Shown piece after piece: positions 33,353 to 60,786 of a DNA stretch of 64,000 nt. Positions within the stretch are counted from its first letter, which is position 1; every line of letters begins with the position of its first letter. Both the position numbers and the translations under genes were made by a program. The notes below the pieces were generated by a model, which ran no database searches, had not been told where the DNA came from, and saw only the letters and a list, made by a program, of their open reading frames with translations. Location: contig CM000432.1 of the NCBI GenBank assembly GCA_000165345.1, positions 96,001 to 160,000 of the forward strand. The letters are read 5' to 3'.

Positions 33353-33390
33353 TGCATGCATGTCCACATAATGCATGCAAATATGCATAA
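33353..33390. promoter_or_regulatory. Cluster of three TGCATGCA-type boxes upstream of the COWP-like gene
   Basis: The sequence reads atTGCATGCATGtccacataATGCATGCAaatATGCATaa. Confidence 0.45.
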
Positions 33391-33777
33391 GAAAATTGAG
33401 CGCAAAAAAGTTGATATTTAAGTTATTAGAATAAGATATGATGAATTAATAATATAAAGTTCTCGTCATCGAGTGCTGATGCATAGAAAAAAAAAGGAAA
33501 TGAGATTAAAATATTAATTACAGGAAAAAAAAGATTGGATAAAGATATTTATGCAAGTAACATTAAGTTTTGCAGAAAAGCTGAGACCACATTTGAGAAA
33601 ATGTGTGTCTTTGTTTATATTATCAATACTGGTATTTAATGGTAGGTTGAAAATAAAATGAGGGAATTTTTTCTAGTCAAGAGAGAATTTACTATGAATA
33701 AAGAAAAAATTTCCAATACAAATTGAAAAATTAAAAAACAATTTATCTTTGAACAAATTGACTAAAATTTTAATTAG

Positions 33778-36704
33778 AACCAATTAATTCAGAGAATGGA
33801 CCACAATTAAGAAGATTAGGATCTCATCATCTTCATCACTCGCATCATCATACCCCTGTTCAAGTTCAGGGAAGTATTGTAAGAACGCCAACTGCTCAAG
33901 GATTAGCAAGAGAACTTCCTATTCCAACGCCTTTATATTCTCAAGTTCCAGAAGTGAATGGATCTGAGGAAACTGTTACATCAATACAAGAAACTGTGGT
34001 TGAAACAGGCCATCCAAAGTATTCAAAAAGAGATGTGATTGTTACAAGAGATCCCTTTTACACATGTCCTATGGGATTCAATTTCGAAGGTAAGTTAATA
34101 GGTTTTTTTATTTTCATTTAAACTTTGGAATAACTTTTATTTTAAATTAATTTTTTTTTATAGTTCCTACAATTGATGGAATATCATCATCCCCTCAGCA
34201 AAAATGTTTCAAAATGGAAGTAGCAGATTTTGTATTGGGATGTCCAAATGGTTGGGCATTTAATGGGATTAAATGCACGGGAGTTTTAACAGCAGATGCA
34301 CAGAAAGCATGTGATGAAGGTTTGGATATTTTAATGGACGAAAATGTTGGTATTCAATGTGTACAAAATTTGGTTGCCCCAAAACTTATTTCTTGTCCAG
34401 AAAATTACTTATTATTAGAAAATGAATGCGTTTTTCCAATGCATTCAAAACCTGATTTGATTTGTCCGGAATCCTTTGTTCCACTAAGTAATGGAAATTG
34501 TCAGAAAGATATAAGAGTTCCCGCAGCACTGGAATGTCCTCCAGAATACATTTTAAATAATGGTGAATGTGAAAAAAGAGTCGAAGTTCCAATATCACAA
34601 TTTAATAAAATTTGTCCATTAGGTTTTAATTTGGATACTGATGGAAATTGCACAAAACAAGTAAATATGAATGCTTTATTTACTTGTAAAGAAGGTTATG
34701 AAAAATCTCCAGTTGGAAATGGAGAAAATGGCTGTGTTAGATCAATTGTAATAGATGCAAGATATAGATGTCCACAAGAGTAAGTTTGGATTTGATTAAA
34801 AGTAATTATTTTAATTCATCATAGATATGAACTTATAGATAATAAATGTGTAAAGAAGATGACAAAGCCTCCAATGGTTTCTTGTCAAGAAGGTAAGTTT
34901 TTCATATCATTATTTCAAATAAATAACACTTAAATAAAAACCATTTACAATGCTTTATTTCTTAATCATTATTTTAACTAAATTAGGTTATTCTTTGGAA
35001 AATAATATTGAATGTGTTAAACAAAGCAAGTTACCAGCTAAATTTGAATGTCCAAAGAAGAAAGATTATATGTATAACCCACAAACAAAGTTATGTCATT
35101 CAATGAGTCATCATCATTCTCGTAAGTTATTAATTTGAAAATATATCAAAGAGACTAAAACTAATAATAACCTTTTTAATATCAGAGAAAACACATCAGC
35201 CATTAGTAGTATGTCCAGCTGGATCTATCCCACAAGACAATAGTCACTGTTTATCTATTGAAAGGTCACCTCCAAAAGTGGAATGCCTTGATTCAGGTAA
35301 GTTATTTCGACGGAAAAATCTTTTTGAAAAGAAAGTTTGAATTTGACTGTTTTTAATAATTTATAGGTTGGATTTTTGATCAGAGCATGAAATTATGTGT
35401 ATACAATGAATATACAAGTGTAAATTTTGAATGTCCCATGAATTCTCAAAATATAGGTAACGGAAAGTAAGTTGAAATAGGAAATCAAATAGTAAAAATA
35501 AAACACTTTACTTTAAAAAATACAAAGATGTAAAGTAATGGAAACTGAAAGTACTGATATTGAATGTCCACCTGAATTTGTATATGAAGGAAATGGACTA
35601 TGTATTAGCAGAATACAAGCGGATCCCCAGATTAAATGTCCAAATGGTAAGTTTTAATTGAGTATTTGTAAAATTTTTCCTAATTACAAGTCTTATTTAA
35701 ATAATATTAACTTTATTAAATCATTGAAAACAGGGTCATCTGCTACTCCTCAAGGAACCTGCTTAAAAATTGAATTAATATTACCAAAACCAATTTGTCC
35801 AGAAGGACTTAGACCATCAATAACAGTAATGGATGGACAAATTCCATTGTGTATAGGAAGAGAAACAGTACCAAAACAAGAAACTTGTCCTTCAAATTAT
35901 GAACTTGTGACAGCCTCTGATACTGGGTTAAGAAGATGCAGAACATATACAAAAAGTGAACCAATAATAGCTTGTGCAAATGGATTTGTAGAGGATGCTC
36001 AAGGTTGTGTACAAACTATTACATCTTCTCCAAGACTACTATGTCCAGAAGACTATATACTTCAATATTCTAGATGTATTAAACAAATTGAGGATATGCC
36101 AAATAAAATGTGTCCAGCAGGATTTGAATTGATTGACGATGACCAATGCAGTCAAACAGTTTACTCGAAACCAATTCCAAATTGTCCTGACGATTATATG
36201 TTTGACAATATTGTTAAAAGATGTTATAAAGTAGATGTCCAATATGATTTTGCATCTGTAGATACAGGTATTTACAAGCAAAATTTTACAAGCATTGTAC
36301 AGACAGGAGAAAAGGATGATGATAAAGATGAAAAAACAAGTGAAAATGAGACAATTAAAGAAACTTTTCAAACAAATAATCCTCCTTTCCAGAATCAAAT
36401 TCCAAATTATCCTGGTGGAAGGTATCCTCCATATGAGAGAATGCTCCCTCCTCAAACTCAATCTCAATCCATAAGGCCTCCTCCAGTTCAGACAATGTAT
36501 CCACCACAAGCATATTTACAAAATGGAGTCTATTCAAGCTACGGAGGAATGATGCCTCAACCTACACAACTTAATACTGGTGCTGCAGGCTACGGCTACC
36601 CCTTTCCTGGCTTCCAACAGTATGCGCCTGCTCCAAGGTTTACAAATAGTCCATCTTACCCAGTTTATATGAGAAGTCTTTCGGAAGAAAAAAATGAGTT
36701 ATAA
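33778..36704 (+). CDS. Multi-exon cysteine-repeat secreted protein resembling Cryptosporidium oocyst wall proteins (COWP-like), with a Pro/Gln/Tyr-rich C-terminal tail
   Basis: More than 14 CP.(G/E/D)(F/Y/W)...C modules occur: CPNGWAFNGIKC, CPENYLLLENEC, CPESFVPLSNGNC, CPPEYILNNGEC, CPLGFNLDTDGNC, CPQE|YELIDNKC, CPAGSIPQDNSHC, CPPEFVYEGNGLC, CPEGLRPSITVMDGQIPLC, CPSNYELVTASDTGLRRC, CPEDYILQYSRC, CPAGFELIDDDQC and CPDDYMFDNIVKRC. The frame is broken seven times by short introns (45-94 nt), each starting GTAAGT and ending AG. Approximate exons are 33778-34089, 34164-34779, 34825-34892, 34987-35121, 35186-35296, 35367-35466, 35528-35646 and 35734-36704. Splice phases were checked by hand and reconnect the ORF-track pieces 34214-34783, 34950-35138 and 35658-36704. 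The first listed exon has no in-frame ATG, so at least one more 5' exon exists. A candidate is ATGTGTGTCTTTGTTTATATTATCAATACTG|gt at 33601-33631, which is phase-compatible. Exon boundaries may be off by 1 nt. Confidence 0.6.
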
Positions 36705-53598: not shown

Positions 53599-54454
<856 letters not shown>

Positions 54455-60232: not shown

Positions 60233-60396
60233 CAATTCCATTTGCTCTTATTAATATTTAATTATTAAATTTACTATTTTTTTTATAGAAATAATAATTT
60301 TGTTTTCATAGCAATAAAAAGACTTTAAACTTTTTTTGTTAAACTTGAATTAATCCAAAACCGTTTCTCATTTTTTTTTTGATTAATAGGAAAAGA

Positions 60397-60786
60397 ATGG
60401 ATCAAAGCATTAATCTGAACCCTCAATTCGACCAAATTGGTAAACAATTTGTACAACATTATTACCAAACATTTCAAACAAATAGACCTGCTCTTGGAGG
60501 ATTATATGGTCCCCAATCAATGTTAACATGGGAAGATACTCAATTCCAAGGTCAAGCCAATATTGTTAACAAGTTTAATTCTCTTAATTTCCAAAGAGTC
60601 CAATTTGAAATCACTCGTGTAGACTGCCAACCTTCTCCAAACAATGGTTCAATAGTTTTTGTTACTGGAGATGTTAGAATTGATGATGGCCAACCTTTGA
60701 AATTTTCACAAGTCTTCAATCTTATGCCTTCTGGGAACGGTGGATTCATGATTTTTAACGATCTATTTAGACTAAATCTTGGTTAA
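60397..60786 (+). CDS. NTF2: Nuclear transport factor 2 (NTF2)
   Basis: FDQIGKQFVQHYYQTFQTNRPALGGLYGPQSMLTWEDTQFQGQANIVNKFNSLNFQRVQFEITRVDCQPSPNNGSIVFVTGDV...FSQVFNLMP..GGFMIFNDLFRLNLG is collinear with NTF2 (compare [27 protein letters not shown]...[41 protein letters not shown]). The ORF-track start at 60379 is TTG; the ATG is at 60397 (129 aa). Confidence 0.85.
   Translation: MDQSINLNPQFDQIGKQFVQHYYQTFQTNRPALGGLYGPQSMLTWEDTQFQGQANIVNKFNSLNFQRVQFEITRVDCQPSPNNGSIVFVTGDVRIDDGQPLKFSQVFNLMPSGNGGFMIFNDLFRLNLG

What the first reader, a model, noticed from the sequence alone, without database searches (positions are those of the whole stretch)
33600..36704. Intron-rich, modular COWP-like cysteine-repeat gene in an otherwise almost intronless window
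Among about 22 genes here, only the UBC E2 has a single intron, yet this gene needs at least 7 GTAAGT...AG introns of 45-94 nt to join its ORF pieces. Most internal exons (34825-34892, 34987-35121, 35186-35296, 35528-35646) each encode roughly one Cys module and end in phase 1. This is the symmetric-exon layout expected from exon duplication or shuffling of an extracellular repeat. The CP.G(F/Y)...C spacing matches Cryptosporidium oocyst-wall-protein repeats, but the long P/Q/Y-rich C-terminal tail (PPFQNQIPNYPGGRYPPYERMLPPQTQ...) is not a classic COWP feature. The gene is also missing its start codon in the visible first exon, so the 5' structure (signal-peptide exon) is unresolved. A short candidate exon at 33601-33631 (MCVFVYIINT) is phase-compatible.
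Basis: partly seen in the sequence, partly recalled or inferred. Interest (0 to 1): 0.65.

Follow-up and report, generated by a model that had tools for sequence, protein, structure and literature searches.

The report
Cryptosporidium oocyst wall protein 7 gene
This is the already catalogued Cryptosporidium parvum gene for oocyst wall protein 7 (COWP7, cgd4_500), a secreted cysteine-repeat protein of the parasite's environmentally resistant shell. Its eight introns are real and unusual for this genome, but they are already annotated.

Summary
Window 33551-36704 (+) is one gene of 9 exons and 8 introns. The spliced product is 840 aa with 45 Cys. It is identical, residue for residue, to C. parvum Iowa II COWP7 (EAK87738.1 / Q5CQJ2 / cgd4_500).

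The proposed 5' exon is wrong. The real exon 1 is 33551-33641, in another frame, with a GTAGGT donor and a 136-nt intron, and it encodes a signal-peptide-like N-terminus.

A published intron-spanning RT-qPCR primer matches only the spliced exon 2/3 junction. The eight-intron layout is conserved as far as C. andersoni. COWP1 is intronless. COWP7 relates to COWP1 (E 1.5e-27) and COWP2 (E 4e-33). Pfam has no model for it.

"Symmetric exons" is only partly right: three of seven internal exons are 1-1.

Four of the seven repeat-region introns sit in the same codon of the 24-aa two-Cys unit (CPx|G). Six of nine do so in a Vitrella OWP homolog with the same overall layout. This suggests, but does not prove, ancient exon-unit duplication.

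The P/Q/Y tail is conserved and ends in -EL in the 10 Cryptosporidium species sequences examined.

Verdict: a known gene and an ordinary finding, with a small evolutionary footnote.

The parts
33353..33379 (.). Two palindromic TGCATGCA sites (33353-33360 and 33372-33379), about 175-200 bp upstream of the start codon. They are candidate ApiAP2 (AP2_1) promoter elements.
   Evidence: 8 sites in the window against 0.68 expected. PMC3734150 reports that ApiAP2 cgd2_3490 binds [T/C]GCATGC[A/G], and that AP2_1-like motifs are over-represented upstream of the late (72 h) class of COWP genes. A regulatory role at this locus is inferred, not tested.
33551..33641 (+). Exon 1 (91 nt, ends in phase 1): start codon and signal-peptide-like N-terminus MQVTLSFAEKLRPHLRKCVSLFILSILVFN.
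   Evidence: This exon is needed to reproduce the 840-aa COWP7 on record. The peptide is conserved in C. hominis, C. meleagridis, chipmunk genotype I and C. ubiquitum. It is the only strongly hydrophobic stretch in the protein.
33642..33777 (+). Intron 1 (136 nt, GTAGGT...AG).
   Evidence: An intron at the equivalent place and in the same phase is present in C. andersoni (122 nt) and C. bovis (74 nt).
33778..34089 (+). Exon 2 (312 nt, phase 1-1): non-repeat N-terminal region (RRLG motif, His run SHHLHHSHHH) and the start of Cys unit 1 (CPMGFNFE).
34090..34163 (+). Intron 2 (74 nt, GTAAGT...AG). This junction has experimental support.
   Evidence: The published RT-qPCR forward primer CTATGGGATTCAATTTCGAAG|TTCC (PMC8305202, Table 2) is absent from the genomic sequence. 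It is present at spliced CDS positions 383-407, across the exon 2/3 junction. The predicted amplicon is 97 bp, equal to the published size. The paper reports no amplification from genomic DNA.
34164..34779 (+). Exon 3 (616 nt, phase 1-2): Cys units 1 to 8 and the first three residues of unit 9.
34780..34824 (+). Intron 3 (45 nt, GTAAGT...AG), phase 2, in the 4th codon after the first Cys of unit 9 (CPQ|EY).
34825..34892 (+). Exon 4 (68 nt, phase 2-1): about one 24-aa unit.
34893..34986 (+). Intron 4 (94 nt, GTAAGT...AG), phase 1, in the Gly codon of CQE|GY (unit 10).
   Evidence: The orthologous junction is also available in C. bovis.
34987..35121 (+). Exon 5 (135 nt, phase 1-1): rest of unit 10, unit 11 and part of the His-rich linker (HSMSHHHS).
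35122..35185 (+). Intron 5 (64 nt, GTAAGT...AG), phase 1, in the His-rich linker after unit 11.
35186..35296 (+). Exon 6 (111 nt, phase 1-1): unit 12 and the start of unit 13.
35297..35366 (+). Intron 6 (70 nt, GTAAGT...AG), phase 1, in the Gly codon of CLDS|GW (unit 13).
35367..35466 (+). Exon 7 (100 nt, phase 1-2).
35467..35527 (+). Intron 7 (61 nt, GTAAGT...AG), phase 2, in the codon immediately before the second Cys of unit 14.
35528..35646 (+). Exon 8 (119 nt, phase 2-1).
35647..35733 (+). Intron 8 (87 nt, GTAAGT...AG), phase 1, in the Gly codon of CPN|GS (unit 16).
35734..36704 (+). Exon 9 (971 nt): units 16-22, the terminal CYKVDVQYDF motif, an acidic linker, the P/Q/Y-rich tail and the stop codon TAA (36702-36704).
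36261..36701 (+). Non-repeat C-terminal region (residues 694-840). Its last 104 residues are 18% Pro, 11.5% Gln and 11.5% Tyr. The final block 36567-36701 (QLNTGAAGYGYPFPGFQQYAPAPRFTNSPSYPVYMRSLSEEKNEL) is nearly invariant across the genus and ends in KNEL.

Best explanation
Window 33551-36704 (+) is cowp7 (cgd4_500) of Cryptosporidium parvum. It has nine exons and eight short AT-rich introns and encodes an 840-aa secreted protein.

Protein layout:
- a signal-peptide-like N-terminus (exon 1);
- a roughly 95-residue non-repeat region with a His run;
- 22 tandem units of about 24 aa, each with two Cys (C-P-x-G-[FYW]-x6-C-x11; three units make one six-Cys 'type I' repeat of the literature);
- a conserved closing motif, CYKVDVQYDF;
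- an acidic linker and a roughly 100-aa Pro/Gln/Tyr-rich tail.

Shown here: the gene structure, the identity of the product, conservation of the intron layout across the genus, family membership by sequence, and the absence of any transmembrane-scale hydrophobic segment apart from the N-terminus.

Taken from the literature: the mRNA peaks late (72 h, sexual stages); the protein is among the 20 most abundant in purified oocyst walls; and a C-terminally tagged version localises to the oocyst wall at low level.

Inferred mechanism: like other COWPs, it is made in the macrogamont, stored in wall-forming bodies, released after fertilisation, and locked into the inner wall through intra- and intermolecular disulfides of its beta-hairpin Cys units. 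The conserved aromatic and Pro-rich tail would provide a second, non-disulfide interaction surface.

Inferred origin of the introns: they are old, predating the split of gastric and intestinal Cryptosporidium. Some are probably relics of an ancestral exon-per-repeat organisation that more highly expressed paralogs such as COWP1 have lost.
For: - Gene model: the nine exons give 2523 nt in frame and 840 aa. An independent spliced-alignment search recovers the same exons.
- Identity: exact look-up finds this sequence as 'oocyst wall protein 7 [C. parvum Iowa II]' (EAK87738.1, Q5CQJ2) and CPATCC_001529.
- Orthologs at 97-54% identity occur in C. meleagridis, felis, canis, bovis and andersoni.
- PMC12548878 states that cowp7 (cgd4_500) 'is predicted to contain 8 introns' and shows wall localisation of tagged COWP7.
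- The exon 2/3 junction is supported by a published intron-spanning primer (PMC8305202).
- The same nine-exon layout and phases are found in C. andersoni and C. bovis.
- Family: phmmer against CpCOWP1 gives E 1.5e-27 over 15 stretches. COWP2 gives E 4.2e-33.
- Wall proteome: COWP7 is in the top 20 (PMC9508764). The mRNA spikes at 72 h (PMC3305300).
- No Kyte-Doolittle window exceeds 1.6.
- The AF2 model is poor overall, but residues 240-540 (pLDDT 60-80) are all short beta-strands.
- COWP1 is intronless.
Against: - No RNA-seq was available here. Seven of the eight junctions rest on frame continuity, consensus splice sites, cross-species conservation and agreement with public annotation, which is itself largely predicted.
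- No signal-peptide predictor was run.
- An earlier wall mass-spectrometry study did not detect COWP7 (Chatterjee 2010, as cited in PMC3734150).
- COWP7 mRNA also rises in oocysts under oxidative stress (PMC8305202). A purely macrogamont-made structural protein would not be expected to do this.
- The disulfide pattern and the role of the tail are untested.
Confidence: 0.95

Rival explanations
1. Intron origin, rival A: the recurrent introns at CPx|G are independent gains at proto-splice-like sites. The repeated motif keeps regenerating such sites (codons ending in AG or G followed by GGT or GGN). On this view they are not relics of duplicated exon-intron units.
For: Exon-side junctions are AAG|GT, CAG|GT and ATG|GG in C. 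parvum, and AGG|G, ACG|G, AAG|G and CAG|G in Vitrella. Phases are mixed (1 and 2) at the same codon in both species, which simple duplication of one intron-bearing unit does not predict. Units encoded by small exons are no more alike than other units, and the introns share no sequence similarity above shuffled controls.
Against: Cryptosporidium genomes are strongly intron-poor and no ongoing intron gain is evident. All eight introns were already present before the C. parvum / C. andersoni split. The same register is used in a chromerid alga (6 of 9 introns, permutation P about 1e-5).
Confidence: 0.3
2. Functional rival B: COWP7 is not primarily a wall building block. It would instead be a protein held in the ER or in ER-derived wall-forming bodies by its C-terminal KNEL. 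The wall signal of the tagged strain would then be partly an artefact of masking that signal.
For: The C-terminus is -EL in all 10 Cryptosporidium sequences (KNEL in six, then KTEL, NGEL, YEEL and EDEL). KNEL fits the PROSITE ER-retrieval pattern [KRHQSA]-[DENQ]-E-L (from memory). The published tag was fused to this C-terminus and also changed the invariant Pro827 to Ala (PMC12548878). Signal was weak.
Against: Untagged COWP7 is among the 20 most abundant proteins of purified walls (PMC9508764). Four of the ten species' tetrapeptides do not fit the classical pattern. The whole last 45 residues are conserved, so the -EL is not independent evidence. The non-Cryptosporidium relatives that were aligned (Rhytidocystis, two gregarines, Vitrella, Chromera and three unassigned transcriptome or assembly sequences) lack it.
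Confidence: 0.07
3. Functional rival C: the Tyr-rich tail is a substrate for peroxidase-driven dityrosine or DOPA cross-linking, as in the Eimeria and Toxoplasma tyrosine-rich wall proteins.
For: The last 104 residues are 11.5% Tyr and include an invariant GYGYPFPGFQQY block.
Against: Cryptosporidium oocyst walls are reported to lack dityrosines (PMC3760245). The tails of the Rhytidocystis, gregarine and unassigned relatives counted are Pro-rich but Tyr-poor (1-3% Tyr).
Confidence: 0.07
4. Artefact rival D: the frame breaks are sequencing errors, or the pieces are separate genes.
For: None found.
Against: Every break coincides with a GTAAGT...AG interval of 45-94 nt at 14-23% GC. The same structure is present in independent assemblies of three other species. 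One junction is verified by RT-PCR.
Confidence: 0.01

Closest known systems
C. parvum COWP7 (cgd4_500; EAK87738.1; UniProt Q5CQJ2)
   Same: Identical over all 840 residues. The intron count matches the published figure legend ('8 introns', PMC12548878).
   Different: Nothing. This is that gene.
C. parvum COWP1 (CAD98498.1), founding member of the COWP family, with type I and type II Cys repeats
   Same: Signal peptide, a Cys about every 12th residue, CPxG[FY]-type units, and significant similarity (E 1.5e-27). Both are oocyst-wall proteins (PMC12548878).
   Different: COWP1 is 1623 aa, intronless and highly expressed, and its source annotation lists type II as well as type I repeats. The literature describes type II repeats as alternating with His stretches (PMC4514997). 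COWP7 has only type I-like units, two short His runs, eight introns and a P/Q/Y tail, and is expressed at low level.
Vitrella brassicaformis 'oocyst wall protein' CEM28898.1 (P0176), and the related proteins of Rhytidocystis, Gregarina and Chromera
   Same: Vitrella, Rhytidocystis pertsovi and the two gregarine proteins share the N-flank ...DP[FY]Y.CP.G[FY], about 42-46 array Cys (22 units in Vitrella) and a Pro-rich tail of 110-160 aa. The closing C[YF]K.x.xY.F motif is present in the Rhytidocystis and gregarine proteins but not in Vitrella or Chromera. Vitrella also places 6 of 9 repeat-region introns in the same codon of the unit.
   Different: Identity is 23-31%. The tails are Tyr-poor and lack the -EL end. 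The G. niphandrodes gene is intronless. Unit-by-unit orthology with Vitrella could not be established (diagonal no better than permuted, P = 0.31).
EGF-like / cEGF hairpin modules (C-x-C-P-x-G-[FY]-x-G-x-x-C)
   Same: A short disulfide-bonded beta-hairpin with a P-x-G-aromatic turn. NCBI sources name COWP1 'growth factor receptor cysteine-rich domain containing'.
   Different: No Pfam family matches COWP7 at E <= 1. There is no PDB relative by sequence or by fold. The unit has two Cys, not six.
Giant bacterial surface proteins with COWP-type units (e.g. Shewanella algicola WP_188927108.1)
   Same: The same ~24-aa two-Cys periodicity and C-P/x-x-G-Y motif. Matches are E 7e-45 to 1e-118 over 10-18 stretches.
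   Different: They are 2,800-4,500 aa. Only the Shewanella protein is assigned to a bacterium by its source. It also has PKD and Big_3_3 domains and a different N-terminal module, and its function is unknown.

Membership tests
COWP family (Cryptosporidium oocyst wall proteins; Spano 1997, Templeton 2004, as summarised in PMC12548878 and PMC4514997) | Significant sequence similarity to the founding members COWP1 and COWP2 | tested here: met
   phmmer against CpCOWP1 (P0038) gives E 1.5e-27 over 15 stretches. COWP2 of C. ubiquitum gives E 4.2e-33.
COWP family | Tandem Cys-rich repeats with a Cys about every 10th-12th residue (type I repeat: six regularly spaced Cys) | tested here: met
   There are 44 array Cys with spacings of 11-18, mostly 12, forming 22 two-Cys units. 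That is about seven six-Cys type I repeats.
COWP family | N-terminal signal peptide | tested here: met
   By inspection only. Exon 1 encodes a basic n-region (K10, R12, R16, K17) followed by CVSLFILSILVF. This is the top hydropathy window of the protein and a predicted helix at residues 2-27. No SignalP run was possible.
COWP family | No transmembrane domain | tested here: met
   No 19-residue Kyte-Doolittle window exceeds 1.6. The maximum is 1.4, at the N-terminus.
COWP family | Made in the female stage and located in the oocyst wall | not testable with these tools
   Literature only: COWP7-mNeon on the wall (PMC12548878), top 20 of the wall proteome (PMC9508764), and mRNA spike at 72 h (PMC3305300).
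COWP family | Type II (shorter, His-interspersed) repeats. These are present in COWP1 but, by analogy with TgOWP1-7, which lack them (PMC4514997), are not taken as required for family membership. | tested here: not met
   There are only two short His runs (residues 46-55 and 403-406) and no type II array. This is consistent with a type I-only member.
COWP7 orthogroup (cgd4_500) | Identity to, or co-linear orthology with, cgd4_500 | tested here: met
   Exact-sequence look-up. The downstream HSA-domain gene is syntenic in C. andersoni and C. bovis.
Pfam EGF-like / cEGF domains | Match to the Pfam model above its gathering score | tested here: not met
   No families at E <= 1. Pfam has no model that recognises COWP repeats, so this null result does not bear on COWP membership.
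Soluble ER-resident proteins (KDEL-type retrieval) | C-terminal [KRHQSA]-[DENQ]-E-L (PROSITE pattern, from memory) | tested here: inconclusive
   KNEL fits the pattern in six species. KTEL, NGEL, YEEL and EDEL in four others do not fit strictly. Function is untested.
Tyrosine-rich, dityrosine-cross-linked oocyst wall proteins (Eimeria GAM56/82 type) | Tyr-rich region that is cross-linked in the wall | not testable with these tools
   The tail is 11.5% Tyr, but Cryptosporidium walls are reported to lack dityrosine (PMC3760245). Sequence similarity to GAM proteins was not tested.

The most novel reading that the evidence does not exclude
The eight introns of cowp7 may be relics of the way the OWP repeat array was first built. 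In an ancestor that predates the apicomplexan-chromerid split, repeat blocks would have been separate exons bounded by an intron in the 4th codon after the first Cys (CPx|G[FYW]), and the array would have grown by duplication of exon-intron units. On this reading COWP7 is the one Cryptosporidium paralog that escaped complete intron loss, perhaps because it is the least expressed.

Support:
- Four of seven C. parvum introns and six of nine Vitrella introns hit this codon. P is about 1e-3 for C. parvum when the site is fixed a priori from Vitrella, and about 1e-5 for Vitrella by permutation.
- If the 22 units are numbered 1:1, units 9, 13 and 16 carry such an intron in both species, and units 9 and 16 agree in phase.
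- A His-rich linker follows unit 11 in both species.

Against:
- Unit orthology is not statistically established (P = 0.31).
- The 3-of-4 unit overlap is my own hypergeometric estimate of about 0.05, not a tool result.
- Phases are mixed.
- Proto-splice-site-driven parallel gain is not excluded.
Probability: 0.4. Interest if true: 0.4.

Novelty: already known. Interest (0 to 1): 0.2.

Why it matters
For the scan, this shows that the first-stage reader can recover a correct multi-exon gene and its family from raw sequence. The object itself is a catalogued gene.

Practical by-products:
1. The correct exon 1.
2. Probable mis-annotations of the ortholog in C. bovis (exon 4/5 junction) and in C. 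felis, C. canis and C. tyzzeri (missing exon 1).
3. A caution for the published C-terminal tagging of COWP7. The tag masks a genus-conserved -EL terminus and mutates an invariant proline.
4. A testable idea about how apicomplexan wall-protein repeat arrays were assembled, and why one paralog keeps its introns in a genome that has lost most of them.

Tried and rejected
- Pfam scan of the spliced protein: no family at E <= 1. This is uninformative, because Pfam has no COWP model.
- PDB sequence search with the ortholog profile: only a chance hit at E 0.87.
- AlphaFold2 with nine orthologs: mean pLDDT 45, usable only for residues 240-540. Foldseek against the PDB gave nothing at E <= 0.001 and TM scores of about 0.04. 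No fold assignment was made.
- Recent exon duplication: unit-to-unit scores show no excess among small-exon units and no higher-order period. Intron-to-intron alignments are no better than shuffled. Rejected for recent events.
- Unit-level orthology with Vitrella: MAFFT inserts extra Vitrella units, and then no introns coincide. A unit-score DP and a permutation test cannot discriminate (P = 0.31). Left open.
- Profile search (alignment A2) to reach coccidian OWPs returned the same eight proteins.
- Chromera OWP has no genomic record. Two GC-rich OWP-like hits (P0106, P0048) sit on transcript-like contigs, so they give no intron information.
- 'cgd4_500' in the virulence-cross preprint is a text artefact for cgd7_4500.
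Full report
**What is there**

The window is AT-rich (about 30% GC) and is mostly long uninterrupted ORFs. Between 33778 and 36704 on the plus strand the coding signal jumps between all three frames. Each jump coincides with a GTAAGT...AG interval of 45-94 nt at 14-23% GC.

Joining the pieces, with a first exon at 33551-33641, gives a 2523-nt reading frame of nine exons and eight introns. It encodes 840 aa with 45 Cys. A separate exhaustive spliced-alignment routine recovers exactly the same exons from the protein sequence.

Seven of the 20 plus-strand GTAAGT hexamers in the 64-kb window lie in this 3.15-kb gene, against about 0.5 expected (Poisson P about 1e-6).

**Identity**

An exact-sequence look-up finds the 840-aa product in public collections. 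It appears as 'oocyst wall protein 7 [Cryptosporidium parvum Iowa II]' (EAK87738.1, UniProt Q5CQJ2) and as CPATCC_001529. The window is therefore C. parvum DNA carrying cgd4_500.

Orthologs at 97% to 54% identity exist in C. meleagridis, C. felis, C. canis, C. bovis and C. andersoni. C. hominis, C. tyzzeri, C. ubiquitum and chipmunk genotype I sequences sit in the same 90%-identity cluster.

A 2025 paper on the family targets 'cowp7 (cgd4_500)' and states that it 'is predicted to contain 8 introns' (PMC12548878). The gene, its name and its intron count are thus already known.

The four exon coordinates listed are exact, and each ends in phase 1. Three points need correction.

- The proposed 5' exon (33601-33631, MCVFVYIINT) reads the right DNA in the wrong frame. 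The real exon 1 starts at the ATG at 33551 and ends at 33641 before a GTAGGT donor. It encodes MQVTLSFAEKLRPHLRKCVSLFILSILVFN, with a basic stretch followed by a 12-residue hydrophobic core. This is the only strongly hydrophobic segment of the protein, and it is conserved in five species.
- Exon-end phases are 1,1,2,1,1,1,2,1. Only exons 2, 5 and 6 are symmetric 1-1.
- The small exons carry 2, 3, 3, 2 and 4 Cys, not one module each.

The context claim is correct. The UBC E2 gene has a single intron, with exon 1 (MALKRIHK) ending at 53622 and a GTAAGT intron running to 54034.

**Support for the junctions**

No RNA-seq could be aligned here, but one junction has published experimental support. 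The intron-spanning forward primer used for COWP7 RT-qPCR (CTATGGGATTCAATTTCGAAGTTCC, PMC8305202) is absent from the genomic sequence. It is present in my spliced CDS at positions 383-407, straddling the exon 2/3 junction. The predicted amplicon is 97 bp, the published size. The authors report no product from genomic DNA.

The other junctions rest on three things: frame continuity, an unbroken Cys periodicity across every junction, and conservation. Mapping the annotated orthologs onto their own genomes gives the same nine-exon layout, with the same phases, in C. andersoni and C. bovis.

The one apparent difference is in C. bovis (exon 4/5). It is probably an annotation slip, because the orthologous GAAG|GTGAGT...AATAG|GATTTGAG junction is present and restores the conserved G-F-E-L motif. 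The C. felis, C. canis and C. tyzzeri models lack exon 1.

The eight introns therefore predate the split between gastric and intestinal Cryptosporidium.

**How unusual it is**

CpCOWP1 is encoded by one uninterrupted 4872-nt ORF. A G. niphandrodes relative is also intronless. Even the most intron-rich Cryptosporidium genome described has 0.5 introns per gene, and 72% of its genes are intronless (PMC13125899). Eight introns in one gene is a genuine outlier for this genus, though a documented one.

**Family membership**

Pfam returns nothing at E <= 1. This reflects the absence of a COWP model, not non-membership. An exhaustive phmmer search finds 301 cluster representatives at E <= 0.001. Among them is CpCOWP1 at E 1.5e-27 over 15 stretches. 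COWP2 scores E 4.2e-33.

The array consists of 22 units of about 24 aa (C-P-x-G-[FYW]-x6-C-x11), with Cys spacing mostly 12. Three units correspond to the six-Cys 'type I repeat' of the literature (PMC4514997). There is no type II array, only two short His runs.

No solved structure is related by sequence. The AlphaFold model was poor (mean pLDDT 45). Its better part, residues 240-540, is a string of short beta-strands, and Foldseek found nothing meaningful.

**Function**

From the literature:
- COWPs are secreted Cys-rich proteins made by female stages and deposited in the oocyst wall.
- COWP7 tagged at its C-terminus labels the wall weakly (PMC12548878).
- COWP7 is among the 20 most abundant proteins of purified walls (PMC9508764).
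- Its mRNA spikes at 72 h (PMC3305300).

Two TGCATGCA sites lie 175-200 bp upstream of the ATG. This is the ApiAP2 site reported as enriched upstream of the late COWP class (PMC3734150).

The disulfide-locked structural role is an inference from composition and family, not something tested here.

Two facts do not fit neatly. An early wall proteome missed COWP7 (cited in PMC3734150). Its mRNA also rises in oocysts under oxidative stress (PMC8305202).

**The tail**

It is not an oddity, though. The last 45 residues (QLNTGAAGYGYPFPGFQQYAPAPRFTNSPSYPVYMRSLSEEKNEL) are nearly invariant even in C. andersoni.

Relatives from Rhytidocystis pertsovi and gregarines share the same overall plan. This comprises the N-flank DP[FY]Y.CP.G[FY], about 42-46 array Cys, the closing C[YF]K.x.xY.F motif, an acidic linker and a Pro-rich tail of 110-160 aa. 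Vitrella shares the flank, the unit count and the Pro-rich tail, but not the closing motif. Chromera is similar but less complete.

The Tyr richness and the terminal -EL are specific to Cryptosporidium. The termini are KNEL in six species, then KTEL, NGEL, YEEL and EDEL.

KNEL fits the classical ER-retrieval pattern (from memory). This raises a low-probability alternative about trafficking, and a caution. The published tag masks this terminus and changes the invariant Pro827 to Ala.

Dityrosine cross-linking of the tail is disfavoured, because Cryptosporidium walls are reported to lack dityrosine (PMC3760245).

**Exon duplication?**

Seven introns lie in the repeat region. Four of them (introns 3, 4, 6 and 8) fall in the same place in the unit, the 4th or 5th codon after the first Cys: CPQ|EY, CQE|GY, CLDS|GW and CPN|GS. 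A blind permutation test gives P about 0.02-0.04.

The Vitrella brassicaformis OWP (CEM28898.1) also has 22 units, a His-rich linker after unit 11 and a Pro-rich tail. It has ten introns, and six of the nine in its repeat region lie in exactly this codon (permutation P about 1e-5). Taking that site as a prior, the C. parvum count has P about 1e-3.

With simple 1-to-22 numbering, units 9, 13 and 16 carry such an intron in both species, and units 9 and 16 agree in phase.

However, unit-level orthology cannot be demonstrated. MAFFT shifts the units, and the 1:1 diagonal scores no better than permuted orders (P = 0.31). Phases are mixed. Exon-side junctions resemble proto-splice sites. Nothing in the unit or intron sequences points to recent duplication.

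Attempts to add a third intron-bearing lineage failed.

**Verdict**

The interpretation as a COWP is correct. The object is the known gene cowp7, so novelty is nil and interest is low. The intron-register pattern shared with a chromerid, and the conserved -EL tail, are minor leads.

Noticed in passing
not in the window; proteins P0029, P0023, P0025 and others: Giant proteins carry long arrays of the same two-Cys ~24-aa COWP-type unit. Examples are Shewanella algicola WP_188927108.1 (2829 aa, E 7e-45, with PKD and Big_3_3 domains), a 4088-aa JGI protein (E 1e-118, 49 CP.G[FYW] motifs) and a 3386-aa Logan protein. Only the Shewanella one is assigned to a bacterium by its source. Many further hits share an N-terminal '...K[AT]LAVD..L' module. 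The COWP repeat therefore seems not to be confined to apicomplexans and chromerids. The direction of any transfer is unknown.
   Followed up: partly
window 33353-33360, 33372-33379; also 19653, 27331, 44856, 47483, 55949, 55983: There are eight exact TGCATGCA palindromes (the ApiAP2 AP2_1 site) in the window, against 0.68 expected. At least six of the eight lie between the long ORFs listed, and two sit as a pair upstream of cowp7.
   Followed up: partly
window 53600-54451 (+): This is a UBC E2 gene with one intron. Exon 1 ([32 protein letters not shown]) ends at 53622. A GTAAGT intron of about 412 nt runs to 54034, and exon 2 begins [10 protein letters not shown].
   Followed up: yes
window 36567-36701 (COWP7 residues 796-840): The C-terminal block is nearly invariant across the genus and ends in -EL in all 10 species sequences (KNEL in six of them). 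The published COWP7 tagging fused mNeon or mScarlet to this end and replaced the invariant Pro827 with Ala (PMC12548878). Localisation of the native protein may therefore deserve re-checking.
   Followed up: partly
L002 4400-4500 (C. bovis FG379_000988); L003 (C. felis); P0003, P0017: These look like ortholog annotation errors. C. bovis uses a GTTTGT donor instead of the orthologous GAAG|GTGAGT...AG|GATTTGAG junction. The C. felis, C. canis and C. tyzzeri models start downstream and lack the signal-peptide exon 1.
   Followed up: partly
window 60349-60783 (+): An uninterrupted ORF that looks like an NTF2-like protein by eye (MDQSINLNPQFDQIGKQFVQHYYQTF...). It was seen while scanning gaps between the long ORFs, and no family search was run on it.
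   Followed up: no
literature (PMC8305202): COWP7 mRNA is reported to be strongly induced in mature oocysts by xanthine-oxidase oxidative stress. This is unexpected for a gene thought to act only during wall construction in the macrogamont or zygote.
   Followed up: no
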